33,656 nucleotides of DNA from a virus (lineage: Duplodnaviria > Caudoviricetes). Positions within the stretch are counted from its first letter, which is position 1; the number at the start of each line of letters is the position of its first letter. The notes under the pieces are model-generated. The model had not been told where the DNA came from, did no database searches, and was given only the letters and a program-made list of their open reading frames with translations. Shown here piece after piece: positions 11,198-29,796 of this stretch. The stretch lies in the IMG/VR virus record IMGVR_UViG_3300040971_000209, positions 1-33,656 of that record. One strand, written 5' to 3'. A program made the translations under genes and the position numbers.

Positions 11198-11227
11198 ATG
11201 TCCACAGTATGGCTTTGCTCCTTCTTT

Positions 11228-11300
11228 GGGCGGGCCATGCGGGGAGCCTTCGGGCTCGCTGGGTTCCTTGACCAGTCTGCAAACCCGCATGGTTCCGTCC
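11228..11300 (+). ncRNA. C4-like antisense RNA (P1 C4 / P4 CI family)
   Basis: Long stem GGGCGGGCCATGCGGG / CCCGCATGGTTCCGTCC; GAGCC-TTCG-GGCTC hairpin; CTGCAAA (11277-11283) complementary to TTTGCAG at 11139 and 11309; TCCTTGA complementary to TCAAGG at 11152 and TCAAGGA at 11344 (the rha SD). Confidence 0.85.
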
Positions 11301-11358
11301 TTTTGCGTTTTGCAGCGCAATGGCGGAAAAAAATTTTTTCCACTCAAGGAGCACCGCT

Positions 11359-12192
11359 ATGAACACCGCCACCAGCACGCCCGCCGTATCCCCTAACCTG
11401 GCCATTATCGATGGCCGACCAGTAACCACCTCCCTTAATGTTGCCGAAGTGTTTGGCAAACAACACCAGCATGTTTTAAGGGCTATAGACCGCCTTGAGG
11501 TTCCTGATGATTTTGCCGCGTCCAATTTTGGACGCGGGTCTTATCTCGACGCCCAAAATCAACCTCGTCCCATGTACCAGATCACCCGCGACGGTTTCAC
11601 CCTCCTGGCCATGGGTTTCACCGGCAAGGCAGCCATGCGGTTCAAGCTGGCCTATATCGCCGCCTTCAATGCCATGGAAGCTGAATTGCTGGAGCAGGCC
11701 GCCGGTGGTTCCCGCAAGTCCGTCGATCTCAATTACTACCGGCGCACCCTTTCCCCTTCCGGCCTCGATATCCGCTACACCCTCGACCTGACCAAGATCA
11801 TCCTCCGCCCCACGCTCCAGTCCATGGCCATCATTGAGCGCCTGACCGGGGTGTCAATCCTTGATCTGAAAGAGCTTGCCGTCAGCGGCGGCGGCTTTAA
11901 AGAGGAGGTCGATTATATCGGCCAGTTCCTGGAGGCGTGCACGATCAGCGCCCCCGGCTCCCGGTGCGGGGCCACCAAACTCTATGAGGCCTTCAAGATC
12001 TGGTATCGTCAGGCGGTCAACGACAACAAACGCTTCACCCCCTCGCAGCGCGCCTTCGGCTCCAAGCTCAATGACAGGGGGGAGTTCCGCACCAACAAGG
12101 TCAACGGCCGGACCTATTACCACGGTTTGGCGCTGACCAATGAACACCCGCAGTCCGTGCTCACCCCCACCAATCAGGAGGTGCAAGCATGA
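11359..12192 (+). CDS. Rha-family regulator fused to a copy of the helicase C-terminal domain
   Basis: TTSLNVAEVFGKQHQHVLRAID...PMYQITRDGFTLLAMGFTGKAAMRFKLAYIAAFNAME is the Rha signature; the 76 aa encoded at 11911-12138 are 60/76 identical to the helicase C-terminus. Confidence 0.92.
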   Translation: MNTATSTPAVSPNLAIIDGRPVTTSLNVAEVFGKQHQHVLRAIDRLEVPDDFAASNFGRGSYLDAQNQPRPMYQITRDGFTLLAMGFTGKAAMRFKLAYIAAFNAMEAELLEQAAGGSRKSVDLNYYRRTLSPSGLDIRYTLDLTKIILRPTLQSMAIIERLTGVSILDLKELAVSGGGFKEEVDYIGQFLEACTISAPGSRCGATKLYEAFKIWYRQAVNDNKRFTPSQRAFGSKLNDRGEFRTNKVNGRTYYHGLALTNEHPQSVLTPTNQEVQA

Positions 12193-12497
12193 GTATGAAC
12201 GCGGCAGAGAGAAAAGACAAACTCGCCTGGATGAATGAAAATATGTACTCACTCATTGAGGCCATCGACTATGCGGAGTGGATGCTCATCCACGTGAAAG
12301 ACGAGAGGATTGATCCGTCCCTGAGGATTTCAACGCGCCTAAAGGTCATCAAGCATCATCTCCATGAGTACCGGATGAAGCAGGAAGTGGAGATATGTCT
12401 CTTCCGAAAACAGGAGGAGCGGCCACCGGCGAAGGTGTACCAGATTCGGCTGGTGATAAAAGAGAAGACAAAAAAATCAGCACCTGGCTGTGATTAA
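12189..12497 (+). CDS. Hypothetical protein (102 aa)
   Basis: GGAGGT SD; ATGA overlap with the rha stop. Confidence 0.7.
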   Translation: MSMNAAERKDKLAWMNENMYSLIEAIDYAEWMLIHVKDERIDPSLRISTRLKVIKHHLHEYRMKQEVEICLFRKQEERPPAKVYQIRLVIKEKTKKSAPGCD

Positions 12498-15460: not shown

Positions 15461-17485
15461 TTGATGATACTCACCGCCCAGACACCCGGCAAGCGCAAAA
15501 GCTATTCCGGCCCGGCCCTCTCCGCCATCCTCGGCGACCATGCCGGCAAGGCCCGCGCCCTGCTCGCCGCCGGCCCGCACCGCTACGCCCATTCCGCCGC
15601 CGAGCGTCAGGTGCTGCGCCGCCGCAAGAAAGAGCTGCCCTCGGTCTGGGCCCCCAAGAACTTCAAGGTACCCTACGGCCCGTTCGAGTCGCGCTATTTC
15701 TCCTTTGAGATCACCCCGCACCTGTTCGGCATGCTCGATGCCTATGCCCAGCCTTATGTCAACAAGGTCACCGTCTGCGCCGCTCCGCAGACTACCAAGA
15801 CCACCTTTGCCCATGTGGCCACCGCCTGGTCGTCGGTCTTCTCTCCGGGCCTGGCCCTCCATATCTATCCGACCGAGACCACCGGCAAGGAGATCATGGA
15901 TGAGCGGATCCAGCGGGTCTATACCGAGTCTCCGCAACTCCGCCGCCTGCTCACCGGTCGGGTAGAGGATGTAACCCAATTAAAGTTGCGCCTGAAATCA
16001 ATGGTGATCAGGATGGCCTGGGCCGGATCGCTCACCCAGTTGGCGCACCGCTCGGCCAAGATCATAGTGCTCGACGAGGTAGACAAATACGGCGAGCGGC
16101 CATCCGAGACCGAAACCACTACCGTGAGCCAGGCCAAGCTTCGCGGCCGCACCTTCGAGCGCAGCGGCGGAAAGATCCTGGTGCTCTCCTCGCCGTCGAT
16201 AGAGAGCGGAAACGTGTGGACGGAGTTGACCAAAGAGACCCAGGCGGTGTTTGTCTACTGGTCACGCTGCCCTTACTGCCAGACCAATCAATTGATGGAC
16301 TTTTCCAAGGACACTTTTATCTGGCCGCACGGGGATGACGGCCACTCCCTGCCCCGGCTGGAGATCGCCGCTAAAAAGCTGGCCCGCTATGTCTGCATCG
16401 AGCCAAGCTGTCGTCGGCAGTGGGATGATGATATTCGGCATAAGGCGCAGGTGCTGGCCATGCGCTCCGGCTGGCGGTTACGCATGGCCGATGGTTCCCA
16501 GGGAGAAGAGATGTCCCGCTACATGCGGCGTGAGCGGCCCCAATCCATCGGATTCATCGTCCCTTCCTGGATCAGCTATTTTGTTTCGCTCAGCCAGGTG
16601 GCCGCTGATTATCTCAAGTGCAAGGATAAAAACCTGTCGCCCGAGGAGCAGTTTGCCGCCTACCAGAATTTCCAGAACGCCCACCGCTCGCTGCCCTGGA
16701 AGATCGAGATGCAGGCCCAGCCGGTGGACAAGATCAAGCTGTTCTGCGACGACCGCCCCGAGGGCCGTCTGCCCGGTGGCGAGCGGGTGGCCTCGCTCCT
16801 GGCCGGGATCGATACCCAGGACGATAACCTCTTCTATCTGTCGCTCTGGGCTATTGGCTATGGATTTGCCAACGAGCAGTGGCTGGTCATGCGCCGTCCG
16901 CTCGATTCCTTTGCGGCCATTGCCCACGCCCTGTGGCAGTCCGACTACTACGACGCCGACGGCCAGCGCTACCACGTCGAGCACGCCCTGATCGATATGC
17001 TCGGACATCGGACCAAGGAGGTGTTGGAGTTCTGCATCCAGTACGAGGGGCTGATCACCCCCTGTTACGGCTCGGCCCGCCAGATGTCCCAGGGATACGT
17101 TTTTTCCACCAAGGAATACCTGCCCGGCACCGATAAGCCGATGCCTAACGGCGGCATCCGGGCGATCAGGATGAATACCAAGTTTTATAAGGATAATATG
17201 GCGATAAAATTGTCGCTGGCCCCAGAGACTCCGGGGTGTATCCATCTCTTCCGCGAGGCCGGGGACGACTACTGCAAGCAGCTGGTCTCCGAGGCCCGCG
17301 ACGCCAAGGGCAACTGGGTGCAGATCGGCAGTCGAGAAAATCACTACTGGGACAACTGGTGCGCGGTCTCCTGTCTGGCCGACTGGCTCGGCATCAAGCA
17401 CCGGGAAAAGCCGGACAGCAAGGCCATACAGGAAGAAGATGACAGCATTATCGAGGGCGTGATGGTTGCCGATATGGGCAGATAA
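15461..17485 (+). CDS. Terminase large subunit, lambda GpA family
   Basis: Walker A-like APQTTKT, Walker B IIVLDEVDKY, SSPS motif, CPYC..C..C zinc motif, nuclease AGIDTQD, C-terminal RENHYWD. Confidence 0.95.
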   Translation: MMILTAQTPGKRKSYSGPALSAILGDHAGKARALLAAGPHRYAHSAAERQVLRRRKKELPSVWAPKNFKVPYGPFESRYFSFEITPHLFGMLDAYAQPYVNKVTVCAAPQTTKTTFAHVATAWSSVFSPGLALHIYPTETTGKEIMDERIQRVYTESPQLRRLLTGRVEDVTQLKLRLKSMVIRMAWAGSLTQLAHRSAKIIVLDEVDKYGERPSETETTTVSQAKLRGRTFERSGGKILVLSSPSIESGNVWTELTKETQAVFVYWSRCPYCQTNQLMDFSKDTFIWPHGDDGHSLPRLEIAAKKLARYVCIEPSCRRQWDDDIRHKAQVLAMRSGWRLRMADGSQGEEMSRYMRRERPQSIGFIVPSWISYFVSLSQVAADYLKCKDKNLSPEEQFAAYQNFQNAHRSLPWKIEMQAQPVDKIKLFCDDRPEGRLPGGERVASLLAGIDTQDDNLFYLSLWAIGYGFANEQWLVMRRPLDSFAAIAHALWQSDYYDADGQRYHVEHALIDMLGHRTKEVLEFCIQYEGLITPCYGSARQMSQGYVFSTKEYLPGTDKPMPNGGIRAIRMNTKFYKDNMAIKLSLAPETPGCIHLFREAGDDYCKQLVSEARDAKGNWVQIGSRENHYWDNWCAVSCLADWLGIKHREKPDSKAIQEEDDSIIEGVMVADMGR

Positions 17486-17543
17486 CGACTAAGGCCACCA
17501 GGAGCGGGCAGTTCCCGCGATCTGGTGTAGCGGATGGTTATAT
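17480..17543 (-). mobile_element. attC-like recombination site 1 (reverse orientation), overlapping the terL stop codon
   Basis: Minus strand: ATATAAC-CATCC-GCT(A)CACC-AG-ATC-GCGGG-AACTG-CCCGC-TC-CT-GGTG-GCC-TTAGTC-GTTATCT; 64 bp with R''/5-nt spacer/L'' with extra base/stem-loop/L'/6-nt spacer/R' geometry. Confidence 0.7.
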
Positions 17544-17563
17544 AAAATCTAAGGAGCAAAGCT

Positions 17564-17848
17564 ATGATGATTGACAGGAAATTTAAGTTTACAGCAGTCA
17601 ACCCTTGTAACGGAAAGCATTACTCAGAAAAAGACGCCATTGTTTTTTGTGCGAAAGACAGGGCTTTAATTCCTACCCTTCAAGCATACTACGTTGAGTG
17701 CGCTTCCCTTGAGTGTGGTCAAGACCATCTGGAGAGCATTGAACTCCTGATAGGTAGGGTGAAGACGTATCAAGTGGCTTATGGAACAAAGGTGCCTGAC
17801 ACTGAAACTGATTGCGAAATAGACAGGTGTATTGGTGGAAACGTATAA
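17564..17848 (+). CDS. Conserved hypothetical phage protein (94 aa); cassette-like ORF
   Basis: AAGGAG SD; IDRKFKF.AVNP...VFCAKDRAL.PTL.AY; flanked by GTTATAT (17537) and GTATAAC (17843). Confidence 0.85.
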   Translation: MMIDRKFKFTAVNPCNGKHYSEKDAIVFCAKDRALIPTLQAYYVECASLECGQDHLESIELLIGRVKTYQVAYGTKVPDTETDCEIDRCIGGNV

Positions 17849-17894
17849 CGGGCCTGAACACCGCTATAAACCTTTACCGTTGGAGTGATTGATT

Positions 17895-18161
17895 ATGCCG
17901 TGCCGACTATGCAATAGACCGATTGAGAAAGTTGATCCACCGTCAACGCTCCACCCATATTGCAGATGTAAATTACCTAATGATGACCGATGCAAGATAT
18001 GCGTCCACCTTATGCGCTACAGTTCAGCGGTGAACCCTGACCACCAAATAAATATATGCACTGGAGACGGATGGGAAAAAGGAGACTGTGAGGGGACATT
18101 TTTTCTGTGCGAGATTACCGAGTTTGATGCAACAGATTGCCTGCTATTTAAAAAAGCATAA
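17895..18161 (+). CDS. Cys-rich hypothetical protein (88 aa)
   Basis: GGAG SD; MPCRLC...CRC...CKIC; ends in GCA-TAA-C. Confidence 0.65.
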   Translation: MPCRLCNRPIEKVDPPSTLHPYCRCKLPNDDRCKICVHLMRYSSAVNPDHQINICTGDGWEKGDCEGTFFLCEITEFDATDCLLFKKA

Positions 18162-18522
18162 CATTGCCGGAACGGAGAAACCAATGGAAAATAACAGCGA
18201 AAAAACAGAAGAACAGGCGGTAAACGTTGAGGCCATTGCTCTGTCATCACCGGCCTTGCAGCACCAGTCAGAGCATTATCCGGCGTCCTGGTATGGAAAG
18301 GTGCCAAAGGTTGTCCGTATGGCTAAAACCGTGACCGATGACTTTCCTTTTGGAAAAAAGTTGATCTGTCAAAAAGGATATGAATATCACGTTATTGTTA
18401 ATAGTCACGGTGCGGTGACTGCTATTTTAGGCGAGAAAGCCAGGCTTGGATTGAAGCCATACGAGTTTGAAATTATAGCTTTTCATTGAGACATAACATT
18501 GCCGGAACGGAGATACCAATGG
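18157..18522 (+). repeat. 31-bp direct repeat (18157-18187 / 18492-18522) including SD and start codon
   Basis: CATAACATTGCCGGAACGGAGA(A/T)ACCAATGG, one mismatch. Confidence 0.95.
18184..18489 (+). CDS. Hypothetical protein (101 aa) flanked by 31-bp direct repeats
   Basis: GGAG SD within the repeat; ..VNSHGAVTAILG...LGLKPYEFEII.FH. Confidence 0.8.
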   Translation: MENNSEKTEEQAVNVEAIALSSPALQHQSEHYPASWYGKVPKVVRMAKTVTDDFPFGKKLICQKGYEYHVIVNSHGAVTAILGEKARLGLKPYEFEIIAFH

Positions 18523-18734
18523 CGAAAAACAGCAAAATACTGGTGAACATGAGTGAGATAGTGGGATATACCGGCCGCCCTGCCAACACCATTAAGTCCT
18601 GGGTTAGAAAACATAATTTCCCGGCGGTCAAGATCGATGGCCGCTGGGAGTCGAACACCGAGCTGATTGATAATTTCCAGCGCCGGCGGATTGAAGACCT
18701 TACCAAGGTTGACGGAGAGGAGGCCTTAGGATGA
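18519..18734 (+). CDS. Small excisionase/AlpA-like HTH protein (possible late activator or recombination directionality factor)
   Basis: LVNMSEIVGYTGRPANTIKSWVRKHNFPAVKIDGRWES; role inferred. Confidence 0.75.
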   Translation: MAKNSKILVNMSEIVGYTGRPANTIKSWVRKHNFPAVKIDGRWESNTELIDNFQRRRIEDLTKVDGEEALG

Positions 18735-19144
18735 TTGATCAAGCAGCGTCGCCGCCACCGTCCCCAACTCGAATTATCAAAAAACCGTATCGGCTGAGTT
18801 GTACCGGCGGGCGAGGAAATCCCAGATGGGTGTATCCTTGCGACGATGGACGGGACTACACCAGAAAAGAGCTGGCCGCTCTGGCGGGAATCACGACCAA
18901 CCAGATATCAGACCGGATTTATGCGTATGGCTGGGACTCCCTCAAGATACTCAAAAACTCGGCCGATTTTATGGCGGCCAAGAAGCGCGAGACCAAGGAG
19001 CGGCAGGCCCTGGCTCAGGCGGAAATAGGGCAGGGCGGTAATGATGAGTGGCATCGTTTGTCGGGGAGTGAGCGACCGCAAAATCTGGCCAGGTTGCGGC
19101 CCCTGGGAATTTTTGAAAGACAGGGGCAGGGTCATGGCCGGTAG
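18731..19144 (+). CDS. Hypothetical DNA-binding protein (137 aa)
   Basis: DGRDYTRKELAALAGITTNQISDRIYAYGW is HTH-like; ATGA overlap. Confidence 0.7.
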   Translation: MIDQAASPPPSPTRIIKKPYRLSCTGGRGNPRWVYPCDDGRDYTRKELAALAGITTNQISDRIYAYGWDSLKILKNSADFMAAKKRETKERQALAQAEIGQGGNDEWHRLSGSERPQNLARLRPLGIFERQGQGHGR

Positions 19145-20648
19145 GTCGCGCCGGGATGTGGGAGGCTGGGGAGGTCTCAAGGGCCGGGTACGGGATGAGA
19201 ACCTGAAGAAGATGCGGCCGCTGGGGAGCTGGGAACGGGAACAGATGTCGCATGAGCGGGGGGTAAAAATGCCGACGGCAACGATGCGGCCTGTTGCAGA
19301 GCCTCCTATCAAGATAAATTCAAAAAGAGAAAAGGGGCTGGAAATAACGATGGGAAATCACGGCAGGGGTGAAGTTCAACCGCAATCAACAACAAAGGAA
19401 ACGACAATGGATTTAATCCAGAAAGACGAAAACTGCTGCCTCTGCGGCAAGAACGGACGCACCAAAAAAATAAAGGGTCGGTTCTACCACGCCACCTGTG
19501 AGGCGATCCGCCGCCACGCCATGATCCGGCCTGAGCTGATGCTGCAACAGATCCGCGAATTTCACCCGGAGTTGGTGGAATCGGCCCCGGTGGTGGCCAA
19601 GGATCGGGTGGAGTTGAATGCAGAGCTGGGGGCCGCCAATATCCGCCTGGTGCAGAAGCTGCGGGAAGTGGATGAGGAAAACACTGAGTTTCGTCGACTT
19701 CTGCGCCATGCCTTAGACATACCGGAAAGTTTCGATATCATGGTTGCCATATCGGCAAAAATGGCTGTAATTGATGAATTGAATTTTACGCTTCAATGTG
19801 TGCGGGAACGGATCAATGTTGTTGATGACAAAGAGATCGAGCCGAAAATCATCAGAATGATATCTGCTGGCTGGGAGCATGGTGAAAAGATCTCCGACCT
19901 GAAAGCCCGACTTGATTATGTGAAGAATACGACCGCCTCCGATGACGACACCTGTACTGAACACCTGGATCTGAAAGGCGAGCTCGAAGGGCTGCAGGAC
20001 GTACTGGCCTCCCTGGAGCAGGAGCGGGCGACCATGCACCAGGAGCGGGTGCGCCTCAGTGACCAGGTACGCTGGCTCCATGAGCAGCTGGCCACGACCG
20101 AAAGGAAGGCGGATGGGCTGGAGAAGGAGGTTGACAGATTGCAGGAATCGCTGGCAGCGGCTAACGCCAGGTCTCAGACTGAGGGAATGTTTCTGCTCAG
20201 ATCTTTATCCCAGCATGATATCCCCTTCCATATCTCTGCCTCCGCCGAGGCACGCGCCGCATTCGCCGACCTGAGAAAATCTGTAGATGGCTATCCTCCT
20301 GCTGATGCCGCTACCGGAAATTCCACAATTGACGCCTTGATACAAGACCTGAAGGGGCTTAATTATTACCCAGCCAGACTCGCCGACGCTGAACGTCTTG
20401 CCGCCGCTGATGACCCGATCAATCAGCCCCGCCACTATACCAGCCACCCCAGCGGCATCGAGTGTATCCAGATCACCGAGCACATGGGCTTTACCCTCGG
20501 CAATGCCGTGAAATATATCTGGCGGGCGGATCTCAAGGCGAACGCCATTGAAGACCTGAAAAAGGCCCAATGGTACATCAACCGAGAGATGAAGAAGCGC
20601 GGGGAAATGGTTGGTAGCTGGCCGGCCTCCCATGAGGTGGCATCATGA
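19134..20648 (+). CDS. Coiled-coil protein with C-terminal DUF3310 (SaV/T7 gp1.7-like) domain
   Basis: DPINQPRHYTSHPSGIECIQITEHMGFTLGNAVKYIWRADLK...EDLKKAQWYINRE; long heptad region; start uncertain (19134 or 19407). Confidence 0.8.
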   Translation: MAGRSRRDVGGWGGLKGRVRDENLKKMRPLGSWEREQMSHERGVKMPTATMRPVAEPPIKINSKREKGLEITMGNHGRGEVQPQSTTKETTMDLIQKDENCCLCGKNGRTKKIKGRFYHATCEAIRRHAMIRPELMLQQIREFHPELVESAPVVAKDRVELNAELGAANIRLVQKLREVDEENTEFRRLLRHALDIPESFDIMVAISAKMAVIDELNFTLQCVRERINVVDDKEIEPKIIRMISAGWEHGEKISDLKARLDYVKNTTASDDDTCTEHLDLKGELEGLQDVLASLEQERATMHQERVRLSDQVRWLHEQLATTERKADGLEKEVDRLQESLAAANARSQTEGMFLLRSLSQHDIPFHISASAEARAAFADLRKSVDGYPPADAATGNSTIDALIQDLKGLNYYPARLADAERLAAADDPINQPRHYTSHPSGIECIQITEHMGFTLGNAVKYIWRADLKANAIEDLKKAQWYINREMKKRGEMVGSWPASHEVAS

Positions 20649-21106
20649 GCGTCAATAAACTGAAGACCAGAAGGTATAAACTGGAGTTGCCCTTAAAGTT
20701 TTTTGCGGGAGCTGCGGCCGCCCTTGCATCCATTTACAAAATTCCTGATCAGAACAAGCCGCCGGCCGCTGATCCCCCTTACTTAGAGGATGAAGGCCGG
20801 AAACCCCTCTTTATCCCCCTGAAGACAGAATATTTCCAGGCGTTCCAGGACGGATCCAAGACCGAGGAGCTGCGGCTTTACGGGCCGGGATGGAATGAAG
20901 GCACCTGCTTTGTCGGCCGGACCGTGGTCCTCTCTAAAGGCTACGGCAAACAGGAGCGGCTGGAGGGCCGGATCAGCGGTTTCAGGAAACAGCCGGCCCG
21001 GTCGCTCAGCACCGCCAATAGAAAGGCCGTCCGGGCTATCTACGAGACCCTGGACATTGATATTGCCTGCATTGCCATCACCGGCCTGGAGCCTGTCCAG
21101 GAATAA
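20645..21106 (+). CDS. ASCH/PUA-like domain protein
   Basis: LFIPLKTEYFQAFQDGSKTEELR...GRTVVLSKGYG. Confidence 0.8.
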   Translation: MSVNKLKTRRYKLELPLKFFAGAAAALASIYKIPDQNKPPAADPPYLEDEGRKPLFIPLKTEYFQAFQDGSKTEELRLYGPGWNEGTCFVGRTVVLSKGYGKQERLEGRISGFRKQPARSLSTANRKAVRAIYETLDIDIACIAITGLEPVQE

Positions 21107-21125
21107 TAAGGAGATACATGAAATT

Positions 21126-21290
21126 ATGTGGCTGCCAAAACTTTTTTATACCTTTATGCCCTTGGCCTGCATGGCCCTGGCTGTTCTTGCCTTTCTGTTT
21201 CTGCCATCCTGCTGGGTGGTGTATGGCTGTTGTGGCTGTCTTTTTTGTTATGGCCTTGGCGTCCTGAGGCAGAGAATGCTCTGGAGTTGA
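21126..21290 (+). CDS. Small two-TM membrane protein (54 aa)
   Basis: MWLPKLFYTFMPLACMALAVLAFLFLPSCWVVYGCCGCLFCYGLGVLRQRMLWS; AAGGAG upstream. An alternative 49-codon frame starts at 21118. Confidence 0.55.
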   Translation: MWLPKLFYTFMPLACMALAVLAFLFLPSCWVVYGCCGCLFCYGLGVLRQRMLWS

Positions 21291-21322
21291 TCCAGTGAAT
21301 AAATAAAAAATAAGGGGGAATA

Positions 21323-21607
21323 ATGGGAACACTACAAGTGCCAGAGGTTTTAAAAGGTAAGCTGGTTTTTGGATGCGAGGAGCAGATCGCCTCTCTGCGG
21401 GCTTACGAGCAGGAGCAGCAACGTTTTTTTGGTGACGGTACACAAAAAAGATACCGGGTTTCTGTCGAAATAGAATTTTGGGAAACAATTACCGTCATGG
21501 CCGGAAGTCAGGCAGAAGCAGAGAAAAAGGCCAGAGACGATTTTTCTCTGTCCTTTAACCGTCACGATTTTTCTTTCCACGCAGAAGAGGATGAGACTGA
21601 TGCGTAA
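21323..21607 (+). CDS. Hypothetical protein (94 aa)
   Basis: AAGGGGG SD; KRYRVSVEIE...TVMAGSQAEAEKKA pattern. Confidence 0.75.
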   Translation: MGTLQVPEVLKGKLVFGCEEQIASLRAYEQEQQRFFGDGTQKRYRVSVEIEFWETITVMAGSQAEAEKKARDDFSLSFNRHDFSFHAEEDETDA

Positions 21608-21634
21608 CGGCCTGGCTAAAGTTATCAAGGGGGA

Positions 21635-22171
21635 ATGATGGACAAAACGGCCCCTGAATCTGTGCGGCAGCTGATCCGGAAAATACACGCCCTCTCTCTG
21701 CGCGGCATCGGCGGCGAGGCTGAATCAGCAAAAATTAAACTCAATAGCCTGCTGGCCAAGCACGGCATAAAACTGGAGGATGTAATCATCGATGTCGTAA
21801 AAACTTACGAATTTCCTTACAAGAACGATCTGGATTCCAGATTGATAATCCAGTGCTTTGTCAGTCTTGGCAACGGCTATAAAACGTATGCCTACCGGAA
21901 GGGCGGGCGCAAGCTGAAAATAATCGGCCTTGATTTGACCCCGGCCCAATATATCGACCTGAGCGGCATGGTGGACTATTACCGGACCGCGTTTAAAAAA
22001 GAAACTGACCGCCTCTTTTCGGCCTTCGTCCAGCAGCATAAACTGTATGCTCCACCCACCGGCGAAGAAGAGGGGGACCAGATGGGCCAGGAGGAACTGG
22101 ACCAGCTGCTGGCCCTGATGCTGGGACTTGGTGAAAAGTCATATTTCAACCCGGCAGGTTTTTTAGAATAA
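21635..22171 (+). CDS. DUF2786-like protein
   Basis: LIRKIHALSLRGIGGEAESAKIKLNSLLAKHGI N-terminal motif. Confidence 0.7.
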   Translation: MMDKTAPESVRQLIRKIHALSLRGIGGEAESAKIKLNSLLAKHGIKLEDVIIDVVKTYEFPYKNDLDSRLIIQCFVSLGNGYKTYAYRKGGRKLKIIGLDLTPAQYIDLSGMVDYYRTAFKKETDRLFSAFVQQHKLYAPPTGEEEGDQMGQEELDQLLALMLGLGEKSYFNPAGFLE

Positions 22172-22228
22172 CGGCAAGCTCACTGGCGCGGGGATGTTTC
22201 CGCGTCAAAGTATAGCGTTTTGTTAGGC
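22166..22228 (-). mobile_element. attC-like recombination site 2 (reverse orientation), overlapping the stop codon at 22171
   Basis: Minus strand: GCCTAAC-AAAAC-GCT(A)TACT-TT-GACGCGG-AAACATCC-CCGCGCC-AGTG-AGC-TTGCC-GTTATTC; 63 bp; R'' matches RYYYAAC exactly; alignable with site 1. Confidence 0.75.
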
Positions 22229-22253
22229 TCTTTTAAAATTTAAGGAGATTGAA

Positions 22254-22592
22254 ATGGCAAAAAAGAAGATTGATAAAATGGTAGATAAATTTCTTGCGTG
22301 GAATCTCCCAAAGGATTTTGCACCTGATGGTGGAATTAGTTTCAAAGGAACGCCAGATGCAAGAGGATATGCTCCAACTTGGCCTACTGGCACTAATTTG
22401 CTAAACGCAGAACAAGCCAAGGACATGATTGAGCAGATGCTGGAGGAATGTGACACGCCTGATATAGTTATTTCGACAGCAAACTTCCTTCGAGGGATGT
22501 GTTTTGACCCTTCACTTCCAACCCACATAAAAAAAGCATTGCAAGGAAGGATAGCCGCTATGGACAATATGGTGGATGAATATTCTGCCTAA
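22254..22592 (+). CDS. Conserved hypothetical phage protein (112 aa); cassette-like ORF
   Basis: AAGGAG SD; MVDKFLAWNLPKDFAPDGGISF...WPTGTNLL.A.QA..M; flanked by GTTAGGC (22222) and its exact complement GCCTAAC (22587). Confidence 0.85.
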   Translation: MAKKKIDKMVDKFLAWNLPKDFAPDGGISFKGTPDARGYAPTWPTGTNLLNAEQAKDMIEQMLEECDTPDIVISTANFLRGMCFDPSLPTHIKKALQGRIAAMDNMVDEYSA

Positions 22593-22624
22593 CAGTGTAA
22601 TAGACAGAAAAAGAGGAATAACCC

Positions 22625-22906
22625 ATGTCCGATGCCTGCCGCCCATTTGCGATTTTCCGCCGCCGCTTGCTTGAAAACGATGGCAATAATTTGGGTAAAT
22701 CTTGCCGGTTCGAGCTGTTTACGGCCAAGACCTGGTCGCTGGTGTGGTCGCCTGGCGACCGGCGCTTCTTCCCGGCGCTGCCCTCGGCCACCCTGGCCCG
22801 CAAGGAGTTCTGGGAGACCAGGATTCGGGTTCGGATCGATGGCCGGTGGTACAAGGACAAGGCCGCGTATCACTTCCTGACCATGGCGGGCCTGCTACTG
22901 GGATAG
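22625..22906 (+). CDS. Hypothetical protein (93 aa)
   Basis: AGAGGA SD; ..FELF.A..W...RVRIDGRW..; GC-rich codon usage like the phage core genes. Confidence 0.65.
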   Translation: MSDACRPFAIFRRRLLENDGNNLGKSCRFELFTAKTWSLVWSPGDRRFFPALPSATLARKEFWETRIRVRIDGRWYKDKAAYHFLTMAGLLLG

Positions 22907-23145
22907 AAATTTTTTCTCAATCGTGTTATTGTTAGTTTGTTTTGGCGGCCCTACGTGAGGGAGAATCCGCCGTATGAGAACTTGTCCGGTGTAGCGATAC
23001 GGTGCGGGCAAGACCAGCCAGATGAGTATGGTAAGCTGGCGGCCAAGATGTAAAACGAGGCGACATCACAAACGCGCCTATCATGCGGACAGCAGGTCAA
23101 TCCTGCCCAAAACATTTTTTTAATTATTACCGTGAAGGAGAAAGC

Positions 23146-23574
23146 ATGTCGCAATGGGGAAAAGAAAAGAATATAAACGGTTCCCGGTTTGTGCCGCTGG
23201 TATCAACGAAACCTTTTGAGCCGGCATCCGACCACCATTTGATTGTCGATATCATCCTGCTGGATGGTGGTAAGGATAATGATCTGGCAGATATTGCATT
23301 AAATGGATTGAAGGAAAAACATATCGGAAAGCCATATTCGGAATGGCAGGCGACTCCATTGGCCAGTGAAACAAAATTATATGCCTGGCAACCTGAAGGC
23401 CATGGCCCTTTATCTTTTTTTGTTGCTGCTGACTCAAAGCAAGAAGCCGAGGAGTCGGTCCGCCGATATTTATTTGAAAATAAAACAGACAATTACGACA
23501 GGGGCGGCTGGCCTTTAAATTTTGAGCTTTCGGTTGTAGAAAAAGGGATTGTCGTAGCCAATGACAATTCGTAA
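23146..23574 (+). CDS. Hypothetical protein (142 aa, AT-rich)
   Basis: AAGGAG SD before ATG 23146; KLYAWQPEGHGPLSFFVAADSKQEA. Confidence 0.75.
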   Translation: MSQWGKEKNINGSRFVPLVSTKPFEPASDHHLIVDIILLDGGKDNDLADIALNGLKEKHIGKPYSEWQATPLASETKLYAWQPEGHGPLSFFVAADSKQEAEESVRRYLFENKTDNYDRGGWPLNFELSVVEKGIVVANDNS

Positions 23575-23600
23575 AAGCATCGGCTGGATGAGGTATTAGC

Positions 23601-23771
23601 ATGAAGATATCTGAACTTATAAAAAAATTAGACGATATGAAAAACGAAGATGGTGATCTTGAGGTATATTATTTTCCGTATGATTGGGCAGAACCATCCC
23701 CCTTGGAAGAGTTAAGCATTTATGACAGTATTGAGATGAACAAAAAAGTTGTGATGATTGGTGATGATTGA
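23601..23771 (+). CDS. Small hypothetical protein (56 aa)
   Basis: GAGGT SD; MKISELIKKLDDMKNEDGDLEVYY... Confidence 0.7.
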   Translation: MKISELIKKLDDMKNEDGDLEVYYFPYDWAEPSPLEELSIYDSIEMNKKVVMIGDD

Positions 23772-23824
23772 TGCCACCTGTGTCGCCCTGAAAAACTCGC
23801 TTTGGGTCAACCAGTCTGTAGTCT

Positions 23825-23914
23825 GTAGGATGGGCAAAGGCCGTCAGGCTGTGTCCATCAACTTCCTTGAGTGGACACCGATATGATGGGCACGCTTCGC
23901 TTTGCCCATCCTAC
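23825..23914. repeat. GTAG-type REP doublet (REPIN-like)
   Basis: GTAGGATGGGCAAAG (23825-23839) / CTTTGCCCATCCTAC (23900-23914) perfect inverted repeat, with inner GTGTCCATCA / TGATGGGCAC. Confidence 0.85.
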
Positions 23915-23927
23915 GACTGAAGGTTTC

Positions 23928-23955
23928 CTTAATTCTTAATTCGTAATTAGTAATC
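23928..23955 (-). repeat. Heptamer tandem repeat, reverse orientation
   Basis: CTTAATT CTTAATT CGTAATT AGTAATC, the reverse complement of AATTAMG units. Confidence 0.85.
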
Positions 23956-23969
23956 AATAACCCCTCCTC

Positions 23970-24007
23970 AAGGCCAGATCACCTCCCGGTGATCTGGCCT
24001 TTTTTTT
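23970..24007 (+). terminator. Intrinsic terminator ending the early/middle operon
   Basis: AAGGCCAGATCACC-TCCC-GGTGATCTGGCCTT followed by a T run. Confidence 0.9.
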
Positions 24008-24012
24008 GCCCT

Positions 24013-24038
24013 TCTCTGCGTCTCTGCGCCTCCGCGCG
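24013..24038 (+). repeat. Octamer tandem repeat
   Basis: TCTCTGCG TCTCTGCG CCTCCGCG CG. Confidence 0.7.
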
Positions 24039-24090
24039 ATCGCCTTTTTTTATCCCTCTTTTTCCCTCCCAAACCACCCCAAACCAAAAA

Positions 24091-24180
24091 CCTGTCAATA
24101 GCGATAACTGTACTTGGGTGATCACCCATCGTCACCCATCGTCATAGAGTAAAAATGCCAAAATCGTCGGGTATGCTTCG
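24091..24180 (+). promoter_or_regulatory. Candidate activator-dependent late promoter
   Basis: Lies after the terminator and before gpW; palindrome TGGGTGATCACCCA (24115-24128), 10-bp direct repeats TCACCCATCG x2 (24122-24141), TATGCT at 24172 without a consensus -35. Confidence 0.5.
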
Positions 24181-24216
24181 CGAAAGATTTCAGGAGTCTC
24201 TTTTCTCGAGGTGGAC

Positions 24217-24447
24217 ATGGCATTTACGACGGCGGATCTGGCAAATGTAGAACAGGCGATTATCTCTCTCGCCACCGGCAAGCGCTCGACCAAGTTTGTG
24301 ATCGACGGCAACGTGGTGGAGTATTCCACCGTCGAGCTGCCCGCCCTGCGGATCCTGCGCGGTGAGATTGCGGGCGAGCTGGCCGCGGTTGATTCCGAGT
24401 CCGGCACCGTTTCCGCCTTCTGCTTCTCCGGGGGCAAGGGCCTATGA
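24217..24447 (+). CDS. Head-to-tail joining protein, gpW-like
   Basis: GAGGT SD; MAFTTADLANVEQAIISLATGKR...DGNVVEYS; directly before the portal. Confidence 0.85.
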   Translation: MAFTTADLANVEQAIISLATGKRSTKFVIDGNVVEYSTVELPALRILRGEIAGELAAVDSESGTVSAFCFSGGKGL

Positions 24448-25964
24448 ACTTCCCTGTCGGCACCATTCTTGATCGCACCGGCTCGCCTCTTGTCATGGCG
24501 GAGGCGTCACCGTCGCCGCTCTTTGAAGGGGCCTCGGTCAGCGCCAGGATGGGCGAGTGGGGCATGTCCTCAGCCGGGCCGACCGCATCTCTTATCGGCG
24601 GTCTGGGTGCGCTGCGCACCAGGGCCCGTGATTTGGAGCGCAACAACCCTTCGGTCAAGGGCGGCATCGATTCGTTTGTCTCCAACCTCGTCGGCACCGA
24701 TATCTCTCCCAACTGGAACCTCGACAACCAGGCCCAGAAAGATGAGTTGCAGCAACTGTGGGATGACTCGCAGGTTGAGGCCGACTTTTACGGGATTTCC
24801 GACTTTTACGGCACCATCGAAATAACCGCCCGCGGCATGATCCGAGACGGCGAGCAGCTGGCCCGCTTCCATGATGTTGATCCTGCCCTGGGCTTACTGG
24901 TACCCCTGCAGGTGCAGCTGCTCGAAGCCGATCACCTCGACGCCGGCTACAACGACATCTCTCCCGACAACAACGAGATCCGTTTCGGCATTGAGTGGCA
25001 GAACGGACGCCGCAAGAGATACTGGCTCTATGGAGACCATCCCGGTGAGAACTTCCTGCGCGGTTCCGACCTGCGCCGCATCCCGGTTGATGCCGCCGAT
25101 ATCGCCCATGTCTTCCGGCCCCTGCGCGCGGGACAGGCCCGCGGCATCACCTGGCTGGCCCCGATCATCACCAAGCTGCGCGAGATCGATATCTATGACG
25201 ATGCTGAGGTGGTGCGCAAAAAGGTGGCCGCCCTCTGGGGTGGCTTCATCTATTCCGACACCCCGGTCAATGACCGCACCACCATGGGCGGCACCAATAA
25301 GGGCACCAGCAACGGCGTCTCCTCCATCGAGCTCAAGCCCGGCACCTTTCCGGTTCTCAAAAACGGCATGAAGATCGCCTTCTCGGATACCGCCGATGTC
25401 GGCAACAACTATCAGGCCTTCATGCGGGTGCAGATGCGCATGATCGCCCGCGGCCTCGGCATCACCTACGAGCAGCTTACCGGCGACCTGGAAGGGGTCA
25501 ACTATACCTCCTTGCGGGCCGGGATGATCGAGTTCCGTCGCTTGTGCGAGACCATCATCGCCCGCACCTTGATTTTCCAATATTGCCGCCCTTGGGTCAA
25601 TCGCTGGATCCGCTGTGCGGTGCTCAACGGTGCCACTCGGACCATCTCCGTTGGGGAATACCTACGTAACCCCCGCACCTTCCACCGGGTTGACTGGAAT
25701 CTTGACGGCTGGGACTTCACCGATCCGGTCAAAGATCGGGTGGCCGAGCAGATGGATATCAGAAACGGCATTGTCACCCGCGGCCAGGTAGTCTCGCGGC
25801 GAGGCAACTATATCGACAAGGTTGACCGGCAGAACGCCGCCGAAAAAGAGCGGGCCGAAGGGCTGGGCCTGGTCTACGACTGCTATCCATCGCAGACCGA
25901 CAAGAGCGGGGCCATGCAGCAGATCCAAGACAAAATCATTACAGACTCGGCCACGGCCGTATAG
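24444..25964 (+). CDS. Portal protein, lambda family
   Basis: LRTRARDLERNN, PLQVQLLEADHL, RAGQARGITWLAP, GITYEQLTGDLEGVNYTSLRAG, DPVKD. Confidence 0.96.
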   Translation: MNFPVGTILDRTGSPLVMAEASPSPLFEGASVSARMGEWGMSSAGPTASLIGGLGALRTRARDLERNNPSVKGGIDSFVSNLVGTDISPNWNLDNQAQKDELQQLWDDSQVEADFYGISDFYGTIEITARGMIRDGEQLARFHDVDPALGLLVPLQVQLLEADHLDAGYNDISPDNNEIRFGIEWQNGRRKRYWLYGDHPGENFLRGSDLRRIPVDAADIAHVFRPLRAGQARGITWLAPIITKLREIDIYDDAEVVRKKVAALWGGFIYSDTPVNDRTTMGGTNKGTSNGVSSIELKPGTFPVLKNGMKIAFSDTADVGNNYQAFMRVQMRMIARGLGITYEQLTGDLEGVNYTSLRAGMIEFRRLCETIIARTLIFQYCRPWVNRWIRCAVLNGATRTISVGEYLRNPRTFHRVDWNLDGWDFTDPVKDRVAEQMDIRNGIVTRGQVVSRRGNYIDKVDRQNAAEKERAEGLGLVYDCYPSQTDKSGAMQQIQDKIITDSATAV

Positions 25965-25971
25965 GTGCATT

Positions 25972-27270
25972 ATGGGCATTGACCATATCCTGACTGAAAT
26001 CCTCAACCAACCGTTGATGGTCACCCCGGCCAAGCTGGAGGTGATTCTCTCCCTCCTCAATAGTCGAGGGAGCAATTCCATCGCCCCTGATTTTTCGGCC
26101 CTGATGCACATGAATTCAGTCTCCGGCCAGGAAATGCTGGCCGTGTCCAGACCGATCAACCAGGTGTCACCGGATGAGGAGCAATTTATCCAGGTGGTGC
26201 CGGTGCTCGGCTCGATGGTGGCCAGGAATCACGGCTGGGGAGAAGGTGACGGCTCAGGCCTGCTCAGCTACCGATCCCTGAGGATGAACATCAACGCCGC
26301 CGCCAAAGATCCATCCATCGGCGGCATCATCTTGGATCTCGACACCTTCGGCGGCATGTCGGCCGGCTGTGAGCGGTTGACCCGCTTTATCGCCGGGGTC
26401 AATGCCATTAAGCCGGTCTATGGCGTGGTTGACCTCAACGCCTACTCTGCCGGGTATTCCATCGCCTCCGCCTGCAGCAAGATCATCCTCACCGATGAGA
26501 CCGCCGGGGTCGGCTCTATCGGCTGCATCGCCATTCATTGCGATATGTCACAGCACAACGAGCAGGAAGGTCTCAACTATACCGTGGTTACCTTCGGGGC
26601 CAAAAAAGACCAATTCTCACCGCTGCGCCCTATGGGCAAAGATGAGGTGTCGGCCCTGCAAAAATCCGTCTCTGCCCACGGTATGCGCTTTGCCGAGACG
26701 GTGGCCGAACTCCGTAACATGAAACTGGATGATGTCCTGGCCACTGAGGCCGGGGCCTATTCCGGAAAACAGGCGGTACAAATTGGCCTCGCTGATGAGA
26801 TCTGCTCATTTGATGAGGCCGTGGCCATGTTGGCCGATGAAATCGAGACGCGAAAGAAGACGTCTTTTACTCAAACCTTTTCTGAAAAAGGAGGCCAAAT
26901 GGCTGAACCAAAGAGCACCAAACAACTTATGGAAGGACTGTTGACGGCGGAGGATGGCCCGGCCTCCTTGGCCGAACTCGGATACACCCCCACCCTTGCG
27001 GCGGCAGATGCCGTGATTGAGGCGGCTGGTAAGACCAGATCCGCCATGATCGATGTAGCCGAACTCTGCCAGCTCGGCGGGCTGACAACCGATCAGACCG
27101 TGACCATGCTCAAATCAGGCAGCGACGCCGCCGCCGCCCGCACCGAGATCCAGCAGTTGCGGGCCGACAAGTCGAAGGAGTCGGTGATCAAGTCCACGAT
27201 CACCCCGCTGGCAGGCGACGGCAAGCACCCGCTGATCTCATCCTGCGAGAAGCTGGGCGAGAAGAAATAA
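25972..27270 (+). CDS. S49-family prohead protease (lambda gpC-like)
   Basis: IILDLDTFGG, AYSAGYSIASAC, GVGSIG, GKQAVQIGLADEI; start placed at ATG 25972 after the portal stop. Confidence 0.93.
   Translation: MGIDHILTEILNQPLMVTPAKLEVILSLLNSRGSNSIAPDFSALMHMNSVSGQEMLAVSRPINQVSPDEEQFIQVVPVLGSMVARNHGWGEGDGSGLLSYRSLRMNINAAAKDPSIGGIILDLDTFGGMSAGCERLTRFIAGVNAIKPVYGVVDLNAYSAGYSIASACSKIILTDETAGVGSIGCIAIHCDMSQHNEQEGLNYTVVTFGAKKDQFSPLRPMGKDEVSALQKSVSAHGMRFAETVAELRNMKLDDVLATEAGAYSGKQAVQIGLADEICSFDEAVAMLADEIETRKKTSFTQTFSEKGGQMAEPKSTKQLMEGLLTAEDGPASLAELGYTPTLAAADAVIEAAGKTRSAMIDVAELCQLGGLTTDQTVTMLKSGSDAAAARTEIQQLRADKSKESVIKSTITPLAGDGKHPLISSCEKLGEKK
26899..27270 (+). CDS. Nested in-frame scaffold protein (Nu3-like)
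   Basis: Perfect AAGGAGG SD before in-frame ATG 26899 (MAEPKST...), matching the lambda C/Nu3 arrangement. Confidence 0.75.
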   Translation: MAEPKSTKQLMEGLLTAEDGPASLAELGYTPTLAAADAVIEAAGKTRSAMIDVAELCQLGGLTTDQTVTMLKSGSDAAAARTEIQQLRADKSKESVIKSTITPLAGDGKHPLISSCEKLGEKK

Positions 27271-27339: not shown

Positions 27340-27714
27340 ATGCCAGTATTAACCGAACCAAATACCCTGGGCGACGGGATCAAATGGGAAGAGTCAAACG
27401 ACTACTCCCGCGAAAAAGTTACCGTCCTCTCCGGCCAGAACCTGGCCCTGCTTCAGGTCGTCGCCAAGATCACCGCCACCGGCAAGGTGGTCATCCACAA
27501 TCCTGCCGGTGTTGACGGCTCCAGTGTCGCCGCCGGTGTCCTGATCGCCGCCGTTGACGCCTCGCTCGCCGACAAGCCCGGCGTCATCATCGTCCGCGAT
27601 GCCATGATCGCCCCCGCCAATCTGGTGTGGCCGGCGGCAATCAGCGCTGAGGACAAGGCCCTGGCCCTGGCCGACCTCAAGGCCCTCGGCATCGTCGCCG
27701 TCGAAACCGCGTAA
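27340..27714 (+). CDS. Head decoration protein (gpD-like)
   Basis: LTEPNTLGDGIKWEESNDYSRE.VTV.SGQNL...DGS.VAAGVL...LKALGI; lies between protease and capsid genes. Confidence 0.9.
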   Translation: MPVLTEPNTLGDGIKWEESNDYSREKVTVLSGQNLALLQVVAKITATGKVVIHNPAGVDGSSVAAGVLIAAVDASLADKPGVIIVRDAMIAPANLVWPAAISAEDKALALADLKALGIVAVETA

Positions 27715-29131: not shown

Positions 29132-29796
29132 GCATGGATGTGAATATCGACATCAAAGGCATCAAGGAGACCACTGATTACCTGCGCGCCACTGAACGGC
29201 AGATATCCCTGGCCACCACCAGGGCCATCCGTAAGACCCTGAAGTGGGTAAAGACCAGTGTCAAGAAGGATATCGCGGCGAAGCTAAAGGTCACCCAAAA
29301 AAGTATCACCTCCAGGATCAAAACCAGCGATATCAAGAATGGAGAAACCAGTGGAACCCTGTGGGGAGGGATGTGGCGCCTGTCTCCATATGCCCTTGGG
29401 ACTCCCCGCCAGATTGGGGGAAACACGGCGGGGTTCGGATCAAAAAGAAAACGTTCTACCCTTGGAGGTGTATCTGTTGGTTCCTCCCGCTTTTACCGGG
29501 GGGCATTCATTAAAAATATTTATGGGGACGGTTCGGATATCTGGATTAGAAAAAATTCGAAACATTTTAACCCCGAATTATTCCCTGGCAGGCATTGGGG
29601 GCAATATGACGGAGGATATGTATTAAAAAAATTAAGGGGCCGTTTTCCGGTAGTTAGGGCTCAAATCGTTATGGAAGATACCATGCGAGAGGTCTTTGAT
29701 CGCGCCGACTCCGATATCCGCGCCGAGTTTAATAAAAAATTACGGGGTGAGCTCAATTTCGCCGTTAACGTCGAGAGGGTAAAGAAAAACCGATGA
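29128..29796 (+). CDS. Minor tail protein (gpZ-like)
   Basis: ATTRAIRKTLKWVKT...GAFI...R.P...ELNFAVN pattern, basic composition, position. Confidence 0.75.
   Translation: MSMDVNIDIKGIKETTDYLRATERQISLATTRAIRKTLKWVKTSVKKDIAAKLKVTQKSITSRIKTSDIKNGETSGTLWGGMWRLSPYALGTPRQIGGNTAGFGSKRKRSTLGGVSVGSSRFYRGAFIKNIYGDGSDIWIRKNSKHFNPELFPGRHWGQYDGGYVLKKLRGRFPVVRAQIVMEDTMREVFDRADSDIRAEFNKKLRGELNFAVNVERVKKNR

What the first reader, a model, noticed from the sequence alone, without database searches (positions are those of the whole stretch)
17480..22610. Integron-like gene cassettes with reverse-oriented attC sites inside a prophage operon, with no integron integrase
Seen: two 63-64 bp imperfect palindromes (17480-17543, 22166-22228) that align with each other (TAACG..AAG..CAC..G..GCGGG...TT.CCGCG...GT.TAGCG....GTTA). 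Each begins in a TAA stop codon, one being terL's. Each is followed by an AT-richer ORF whose own stop lies in the complement of the upstream core (GTTAGGC...GCCTAAC 7/7; GTTATAT...GTATAAC 6/7). On the minus strand they show canonical attC geometry, including the extra base in L''. Established: complementary core/inverse-core flanks are the hallmark of integron cassettes, and reverse-type arrays with ORFs opposite to attC polarity are known (e.g. Treponema). To my knowledge integron elements are considered rare or absent in phages. Inference: the phage uses a host IntI in trans to gain or shuffle accessory genes at TAAC stop codons, which inserts genes co-oriented with phage transcription without breaking any ORF. 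This is my best candidate for an undescribed system.
Basis: partly seen in the sequence, partly recalled or inferred. Interest (0 to 1): 0.85.

Follow-up and report, generated by a model that had tools for sequence, protein, structure and literature searches.

The report
Backward integron cassettes in a prophage
This prophage carries two small swappable gene units built like bacterial integron cassettes but with the gene facing backwards, a layout common in viral DNA and rare in cell genomes, which likely lets phages slot in accessory, possibly anti-defence, genes right after a stop codon without breaking their own genes.

Summary
Confirmed. The hairpins at 17480-17543 and 22166-22228 are attC-type sites whose recombining (bottom) strand is the phage's coding strand. 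Each heads a one-gene cassette (17486-17848; 22172-22592) bounded by TAA|C. The contig has no intI.

The layout is a class. One strand-blind attC pattern gave 10 reverse and 3 forward cassettes in viral contigs, against 0 and 32 in cell genomes. Relatives of both cargo genes recur as reverse cassettes in unrelated phages. Some phages carry their own intI directly behind such arrays; three loci are identical from AA|C onward yet differ before it. Gene B's N-terminal domain is often fused to known anti-defence sponges.

Against: no precise empty site or excision was seen, site A is decayed, and site B folds weakly.

Corrections: Treponema 'reverse integrons' flip the integrase, not the genes; phage attC sites are published (Qi 2023); the proposed circles omit the hairpin. 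I found no paper describing reversed polarity, though tested phage H101 sites show it. This scan has noted the layout before on other DNA. New variant of a known kind.

The parts
15461..17485 (+). terminase large subunit (lambda gpA type); its stop TAA is the left side of cassette A's crossover
   Evidence: PF05876 and PF20454; sequence
17480..17543 (+). attC site A read on its bottom strand: crossover box 17480-86, hairpin, inverse core 17537-43; partly decayed L box
   Evidence: CM 21.9 bits, E 0.002; fold -12.6 kcal/mol, z -2.95
17486..17848 (+). cassette A, 363 bp, from the C after terL's TAA to the TAA of gene A (inferred mobile unit)
   Evidence: core/inverse core 6/7; homologous cassettes in other phages
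17564..17848 (+). gene A, 94 aa, viral family with no Pfam or PDB match; predicted homodimer; weak anti-defence lead
21635..22171 (+). 178-aa phage gene (phrog_421, weak) whose stop TAA is the left side of cassette B's crossover; may itself be an older cassette
22166..22228 (+). attC site B read on its bottom strand: crossover box 22166-72, hairpin, inverse core 22222-28
   Evidence: CM 31.4 bits, E 7e-6; 43 of 49 nt shared with a site on another contig of the same sample
22172..22592 (+). cassette B, 421 bp (inferred mobile unit)
   Evidence: core/inverse core 7/7
22254..22592 (+). gene B, 112 aa; residues 1-65 form a domain that relatives fuse to or insert in Sequestin, Acb4 and Tad2 sponges; residues 74-110 match phrog_13384
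17849..17895 (+). right flank of A: not an attC; possibly the stump of a deleted site or a secondary target
   Evidence: no CM hit; sequence; inference
22593..22624 (+). right flank of B: not an attC; only loosely like the putative phage attI sites
   Evidence: inconclusive
24211..25964 (+). gpW-like adaptor and lambda portal, which close the 6.7-kb accessory interval opened by terL

Best explanation
These are two solitary integron-type gene cassettes whose genes lie on the recombining strand of their attC sites, likely inserted by an integron integrase supplied from outside this prophage. The folded bottom strand would be cut at AA|C and joined to an AAC in the phage, so the upstream gene keeps its TAA, the hairpin and ribosome-binding site come next, and the cargo gene ends on the cassette's own last TAA; it would then be read from the phage's own transcript. 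The cassettes likely come from a pool circulating among phages, some of which carry complete integrons laid out as array, attI, intI, all on one strand. With no second attC on their right they would excise poorly and are likely being fixed and decaying into ordinary phage genes. Their likely use is counter-defence. Shown: anatomy, polarity, class-wide bias, phage-borne intI, swapping at AA|C in relatives. Inferred: integrase activity on these two sites, its source, expression, cargo function.
For: Anatomy and model hits. Polarity by a symmetric test: of 30 viral sites 15 had a 7/7 partner core (10 reverse, 3 forward, 2 unclear); of 80 cellular sites 39 had one (0 reverse, 32 forward, 7 unclear); Fisher p 9e-8; a cruder test gave 12:14 against 8:60. 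In 80 viral loci of gene B relatives the bottom strand was the gene strand in 46 calls against 7, with 7 calls in shuffles; 21 of 41 extracted cassettes had 7/7 cores of varied sequence and 17 ended on TAA|C. Gene A relatives: 5 of 31 loci (two identical) end on TAA|C with a 7/7 core, in different contexts. IntI over the cut-off in 3 of 33 viral records, and one partial. In 12 of 21 viral intI loci attC calls lay upstream of intI and none downstream. L340, L342 and L344 are identical for 1000 of 1000 nt from |C onward and 22-30 of 100 before it. The two phage H101 sites that IntI1 recombined in Qi 2023 have their bottom strand on the strand of all 9 annotated genes there. Secondary-site insertion at GWT is published. 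32 of 120 listed gene B relatives carry a sponge Pfam.
Against: No precise empty site: the one relative covering the region (L002, terL 77%) lacks both cassettes but has other genes at both places. Site A has L-box mismatches and a 6/7 core where relatives have 7/7; site B folds weakly and was missed by my detector. The L'' extra base is T, not the usual G. Most gene A relatives (26 of 31 loci) show no 7/7 core at the stop. TAA|C also ends four genes outside the interval (12189-12497, 25822-27270, 27340-27714, 29793-30233) that have no hairpin. Viral loci are not independent, and cellular sets may hold prophages. Phages also carry forward cassettes (TJE1, Rctr41k). Neither cargo protein matches a known sponge itself.
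Confidence: 0.68

Rival explanations
1. Dead passengers: the units were cassettes in an intI-carrying phage, but reached this prophage inside larger mosaic blocks by homologous or illegitimate recombination, and no integrase has acted here.
For: No intI in the contig; decayed site A; no attC on the right of either cassette; the whole terL-gpW interval differs from L002's by gene swaps; several neighbouring AT-rich genes also end at TAA|C without intact hairpins.
Against: Cassette A starts exactly at the stop of terL, a core gene with phage-typical GC3 of 0.80, with no leftover donor sequence; B keeps a 7/7 core and a site 43/49 alike to another contig's site.
Confidence: 0.24
2. Ordinary host cassettes that went in backwards, by top-strand recombination or an inversion.
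For: Top-strand recombination occurs at low rate (Nivina 2016); a similar attC sits on a high-depth contig of the same sample with flanks that read like a forward cassette.
Against: Backward insertion turns gene and attC together and cannot change their relative polarity; the complementary core lies at the gene's stop; both cargo families are viral; 0 of 32 classified cellular cassettes were reverse.
Confidence: 0.04
3. Chance hairpins or RNA signals (terminators, processing sites) between phage genes.
For: Site B's energy is within the range of shuffles; TAA|C stops occur elsewhere in the window.
Against: The two sites align beyond chance and are the only strong model hits; no Rfam family matches them; cores co-vary with gene ends across 21 of 41 related cassettes.
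Confidence: 0.04

Closest known systems
Phage-borne CALINs and attC sites (Qi, Rajabal, Ghaly, Tetu, Gillings 2023, PMC9892861)
   Same: attC sites and small cassettes in phage genomes without intI; DNA methyltransferase cargo; IntI1 recombines their bottom strands. H101's two tested sites have the same reversed polarity as here.
   Different: In the parts I read (text parts 1-4 of 7, supplement part 1 of 2) the paper calls the arrays typical and does not note ORFs on the bottom strand; TJE1's sites are forward. Here the two sites are 4.6 kb apart and solitary, inside the packaging operon.
SALINs and attG insertion (Loot et al., bioRxiv 10.1101/2022.09.11.507474; passages read)
   Same: Single attC cassettes away from any integron, explained by IntI insertion at a GWT site; AAC on the bottom strand fits that consensus.
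   Different: Described for bacterial chromosomes; here the target is a phage stop codon and the gene is reversed against attC.
Classical integron cassette (class 1; sedentary chromosomal integrons)
   Same: R/L box anatomy, extra bases on the arm opposite AAC, complementary cores; in the related phage integrons intI keeps its usual side and strand relative to attC.
   Different: The ORF is on the bottom strand, the hairpin precedes it, the crossover falls at its stop, and it could not be expressed from Pc; the newest cassette would lie last in the transcript, not first.
Treponema 'reverse' or inverted-integrase integrons (Cury 2016, PMC4889954; PMC4909258; passages read)
   Same: intI and cassette genes on one strand, as in the related phage integrons.
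   Different: There the integrase is flipped relative to attC; here the genes are. Virus Rctr41k shows the Treponema-like solution in a phage.
Phage anti-defence sponges Sequestin (PF21825), Acb4 (PF13876), Tad2 (PF11195) (Tal et al., bioRxiv 10.1101/2025.07.12.664507; passages read)
   Same: Short phage proteins; gene B's domain is fused to all three families, the criterion by which Sequestin was found; gene A is predicted to form a homodimer.
   Different: Neither window protein matches any of these families or a solved structure.

Membership tests
attC site | 5'-AAC-3' crossover box and complementary GTT box at the two ends | tested here: met
   Both sites
attC site | Paired L boxes, 5-6 nt spacers, length 57-141 nt | tested here: met
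   63-64 nt; spacers 5/5 in B and 6/5 in A; one L-box mismatch in B, two in A (ranges)
attC site | Extra-helical bases on the arm opposite AAC, the outer one a T | tested here: met
   Both on the 3' arm when read on +; outer base T in both
attC site | Extra base in L'' usually G on the bottom strand | tested here: not met
   T in both sites; described as usual, not strict, in Nivina 2016
attC site | Score with the IntegronFinder or HattCI model | not testable with these tools
   Only my own model R1 was available
attC site | Strand-selective recombination by IntI | not testable with these tools
   Needs a conjugation assay; shown for H101 sites of the same polarity in Qi 2023
Classical gene cassette | Cassette end complementary to the inverse core | tested here: met
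   7/7 for B, 6/7 for A
Classical gene cassette | ORF on the top strand, upstream of its attC | tested here: not met
   Both ORFs are on the bottom strand, after the hairpin
CALIN | At least two attC sites less than 4 kb apart on one strand, no intI | tested here: not met
   Same strand and no intI, but 4,622 bp apart (threshold); two SALINs by that rule
SALIN | Single attC with a gene and no integrase nearby | tested here: met
Complete integron | intI gene | tested here: not met
   TIGR02249 has no match in G000, which is about 48% complete
Complete integron | attI site | tested here: inconclusive
   Right flanks do not fit the AA|C-N4-RTT pattern of most putative phage attI sites; B's is loosely alike
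Treponema-type reverse integron | [quoted passage not shown] | tested here: not met
   No intI here; in related phage integrons intI is on the bottom strand, the usual polarity
Anti-defence sponge (Sequestin, Acb4, Tad2, Acb2/Tad1, Lockin) | Family profile or fold match | tested here: inconclusive
   No Pfam, PDB or fold match for either protein; only fusion partners in relatives
Anti-defence sponge (Sequestin, Acb4, Tad2, Acb2/Tad1, Lockin) | Binds an immune nucleotide and cancels defence | not testable with these tools
   Needs expression with Thoeris, CBASS or Pycsar

The most novel reading that the evidence does not exclude
Phages run their own mirror-image integron system: integrases repeatedly taken from bacteria sit behind arrays of reverse-polarity cassettes, package ordinary phage genes (methyltransferases, nucleotide sponges) into cassettes, and seed them at TAA|C stops in phages that lack the enzyme. 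It would be the counter-defence counterpart of bacterial anti-phage integrons and a place where cassette formation from known parent genes can be traced.
Probability: 0.45. Interest if true: 0.85.

Novelty: new variant of a known kind. Interest (0 to 1): 0.66.

Why it matters
Integrons are seen as bacterial tools, lately as stores of anti-phage genes (search listings only). A phage-side cassette pool with reversed polarity would give phages the same site-specific gene swapping, and would explain part of phage mosaicism by a defined enzyme. Such cassettes would be silent in a bacterial array, which would keep the two pools apart. How cassettes are made is an open question (own knowledge): here the same gene families exist as plain phage genes and as cassettes, and gene A relatives carry at least two different core pairs, so capture can be studied by comparison. 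Cassette position plus sponge fusions also points to two untested counter-defence candidates.

Tried and rejected
Empty sites: terL searches gave 2 viral loci and none in genome or metagenome contigs; L002 is too diverged to be an empty allele. Contigs of four runs of one sample, depth about 3, showed no joint across either cassette; contigs drop rare variants, so this says nothing about excision. No RNA holder listed. Rfam: only a C4 antisense RNA at 11222-11302. A second viral pattern returned 13 loci, nearly all contigs already held, and was not analysed. Model R1 found nothing in Rctr41k or H101, so it is narrow. My strict detector missed site B and gave one spurious long hit. Cargo folds: no match at E 0.001 in the PDB by sequence profile or Foldseek; best VIA Z 6.8 over a generic helical hairpin; the single-sequence PPR hits for B vanished with the profile and were set aside. 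My recalled likeness of gene A to Lockin was dropped: Lockin is mostly beta sheet and no match appeared. Gene A tree is unresolved, and L055 is a false cassette call in it; it does not show the direction of capture. No gene A relative among 149 carried the B domain. The Acb2/Tad1 hit in one related cassette is below the Pfam cut-off (20.6 against 27 bits). One phage IntI clade was rejected.
Full report
SETTING. The window is a whole 33,656-nt virus record, estimated 48% complete. It is a lambda-like prophage: a pyruvate kinase gene and serine integrase at the left, then repressor, primase, terS, terL (gpA type, 15461-17485), a 6.7-kb interval of small genes, and gpW, portal, protease, capsid and tail genes. 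No integron integrase is present.

OBSERVATION. They align with each other beyond chance (score 53, shuffled mean 15.5, 0 of 500). I built a covariance model from 28 attC-like sites of other viral contigs. Searched without filters, it ranks site B (31.4 bits) and site A (21.9 bits) first and second; the next hit has 10.6 bits. The seed pattern was written with B's left L box in view, so B's score is partly circular. Read on +, each site runs AAC, spacer, L box, stem-loop, L box with an extra base, spacer, GTT. The extra bases are on the arm opposite AAC, which defines the recombining bottom strand (Nivina 2016, passages). The bottom strand is therefore the coding strand. The crossover falls at TAA|C, so each hairpin belongs to the gene after it: cassette A is 17486-17848 and cassette B is 22172-22592. 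Weak points: B's folding energy is not unusual (z -0.96) and my rule-based detector missed it; A has two L-box mismatches and a 6/7 core; the L'' extra base is T in both.

IS THE POLARITY A CLASS? I ran one strand-blind pattern over viral contigs (33 loci) and cellular genomes (123 loci, of which the 80 with flanks were used). In a symmetric test a cassette was delimited by a 7/7 partner core and given to the strand whose ORF fills it. Of 30 distinct viral sites 15 had a partner: 10 reverse, 3 forward, 2 unclear. Of 80 cellular sites 39 had one: 0 reverse, 32 forward, 7 unclear (Fisher p 9e-8, loci not independent). A cruder longest-ORF test gave 12 reverse, 14 forward, 3 none of 29, against 8, 60, 6 of 74. 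Around 80 viral relatives of gene B, attC calls had the bottom strand on the gene strand 46 times and opposite 7 times; shuffles gave 7 calls in all. Of 41 cassettes extracted from the gene A and gene B loci, 21 had 7/7 cores of varied sequence and 17 ended on TAA|C. Gene A relatives show the same in 5 of 31 loci: L036 and L037 (identical genes), L038 and L043 with one core pair, and L061 with another; the other 26 lack a 7/7 core at the stop. DNA likeness to L036, L038 and L043 stops within 2 nt of TAA|C, but that is also the end of the coding sequence.

WHICH INTEGRASE? Of 33 viral records chosen for reverse cassettes or kinship, 3 had IntI over the TIGR02249 cut-off and one a partial copy. 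A search with three of these proteins gave 21 viral loci (biased to those lineages, three being the queries). In 12 of 21, attC calls lay upstream of intI and none lay downstream; 8 of the other 9 had under 800 nt upstream. All 9 model hits and all but two detector calls had the bottom strand on the intI strand. Pfam-confirmed cargo (methyltransferases, exonuclease) is on that strand too, and in L331, L332, L334 and L339 intI is followed by a gpA terminase, 38% identical to the window's for L334. The order is array, putative attI 30-90 nt before intI, intI. L340, L342 and L344 are identical for 1000 of 1000 nt from the C of AA|C onward and share 22-30 of 100 nt before it: three different first cassettes at one site. 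The 15 phage integrases do not form one clade among 27 cellular ones (4 changes, at least 2 forced; quick tree, one short row dropped), which suggests repeated capture from bacteria. The host could not be searched. In four runs of one sample, possibly the window's source, a 5,308-nt contig at depth 123-156 holds a site 43 of 49 nt like B, matching from the TAA onward; its 30-nt flanks read like a forward cassette. That suggests a cellular integrase in that community could read site B, but it is one sample and short flanks.

EMPTY SITES. Not found. L002 (terL 77% identical) shares the interval's backbone and lacks both cassettes, but has other genes at both places. Low-depth contigs showed no joint, which cannot show absence.

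CARGO. Neither protein has a Pfam or solved-structure match. Of 120 listed gene B relatives, 32 carry PF13876 (20), PF21825 (9) or PF11195 (3). These are Acb4, Sequestin and Tad2, and such fusions were the route to Sequestin's discovery (Tal et al., passages). In 15 that I checked, the B-like domain lies beside the Sequestin or Tad2 domain, and inside or beside the Acb4 match. For gene A, 3 of 88 long relatives carry Sequestin or Acb4. Its homodimer model scored 0.85 against a best control of 0.00, runs agreeing in at least 97% of contacts, pLDDT at least 91; that mark was reached by 20 of 30 solved homodimers and 1 of 23 solved monomers. This supports binding, does not show it, and is not specific to sponges. 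Of the 41 related cassettes, 3 carry DNA methyltransferases, one a Sequestin fusion and one a sub-threshold Acb2/Tad1 match; 31 have no Pfam hit.

MECHANISM. Shown: anatomy, polarity, class bias, phage integrons, swapping at AA|C in relatives. Inferred: a circular cassette's folded bottom strand is joined by IntI to an AAC in the phage. Loot et al. (passages) show insertion at GWT sites outside integrons, which AAC fits. Insertions at a TAA|C stop in the sense direction break nothing and are transcribed, so they would be the ones that survive; no stop-codon targeting is needed. With no attC on the right, excision would be rare, and folded attC sites can be lost by slippage, so the cassettes would turn into plain genes. 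Neighbouring AT-rich genes ending at TAA|C (18161, 21607) may be such remains. Recombination between sites A and B would remove 17486-22171.

KNOWN WORK. Qi 2023 (text parts 1-4 of 7 and supplement part 1 of 2 read) found 17 CALINs and 3 complete integrons in 10,705 phages and showed IntI1 recombines five phage attC sites. Checking their sites, TJE1's are forward, while both H101 sites have the bottom strand on the strand of all 9 annotated genes, though those genes do not stop at TAA|C. So sites of this polarity have been shown to recombine, unremarked in what I read; figures and the Dryad file were not seen. Treponema reverse integrons flip the integrase (Cury 2016 and PMC4909258, passages); virus Rctr41k appears to have that form (read by eye). 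Ghaly 2021 (passages) and PMC12901181 (abstract) added nothing on polarity. Ten searches found no description of reverse-polarity phage cassettes; the library lacks most subscription papers. Earlier AI notes of this scan report the layout in other phages; they are not independent support, and none matched this DNA or gene A.

VERDICT. Real, and a new variant of a known kind: it works like an integron cassette and meets the attC and SALIN tests that could be run, but fails the classical-cassette, CALIN and complete-integron tests. This locus is a modest, ageing example; the interest lies in the class.

Noticed in passing
window 18155-18180 and 18490-18515: A direct repeat of about 25 nt containing TAA|C and a ribosome-binding site flanks the AT-rich gene ending at 18489; the same leader type precedes the HTH gene in L002. 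It may mark a gene gained by recombination between short boundary repeats or a cassette with a lost hairpin.
   Followed up: partly
window 21605-21634: After the TAA|C stop of 21323-21607 lies a 25-nt stretch that looks like a collapsed attC (left arm, then a GTT core 5/7 complementary to the end of gene 21635-22171), so the gene before cassette B may be an older cassette.
   Followed up: partly
window 17486-24210: About 17 small genes, several of early/middle type (HTH, ASCH-like, DUF3310), sit between terL and gpW, which are adjacent in lambda; L002 shares this interval.
   Followed up: partly
window 11222-11302: C4 antisense RNA (RF01695, 54.2 bits) just before a Rha-domain gene.
   Followed up: no
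window 22934-23121: A non-coding stretch of about 190 nt is 84% conserved in L002 while flanking genes differ; possibly a structured RNA; no Rfam match.
   Followed up: no
window 23790-24030: A palindromic repeat near 23824-23915 draws very high depth from many other contigs, like a host REP-type repeat; a second palindrome follows at about 24000.
   Followed up: no
window about 10520, 27735 and 31015: Short tandem AATTACG-type repeats follow three gene ends.
   Followed up: no
L331 2901-5851; L332, L334, L339: A phage intI directly precedes, and in L331 overlaps the start of, a gpA terminase gene, placing the integrase inside the packaging operon.
   Followed up: partly
L352 4680-9155 (virus Rctr41k, KX853513): An IntI-like gene annotated as xerD is followed by forward cassettes on its own strand: a Treponema-like layout in a phage, read by eye.
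   Followed up: partly
L040 and L050 around 2400-2900: Gene A relatives lie beside hairpins whose end boxes read AAT/ATT instead of AAC/GTT, perhaps a variant site family.
   Followed up: no
P0157, P0160, P0164, P0179, P0191: The gene B domain lies at residues 46-95 inside the Acb4 (PF13876) match, as an insertion and not an end-to-end fusion.
   Followed up: partly
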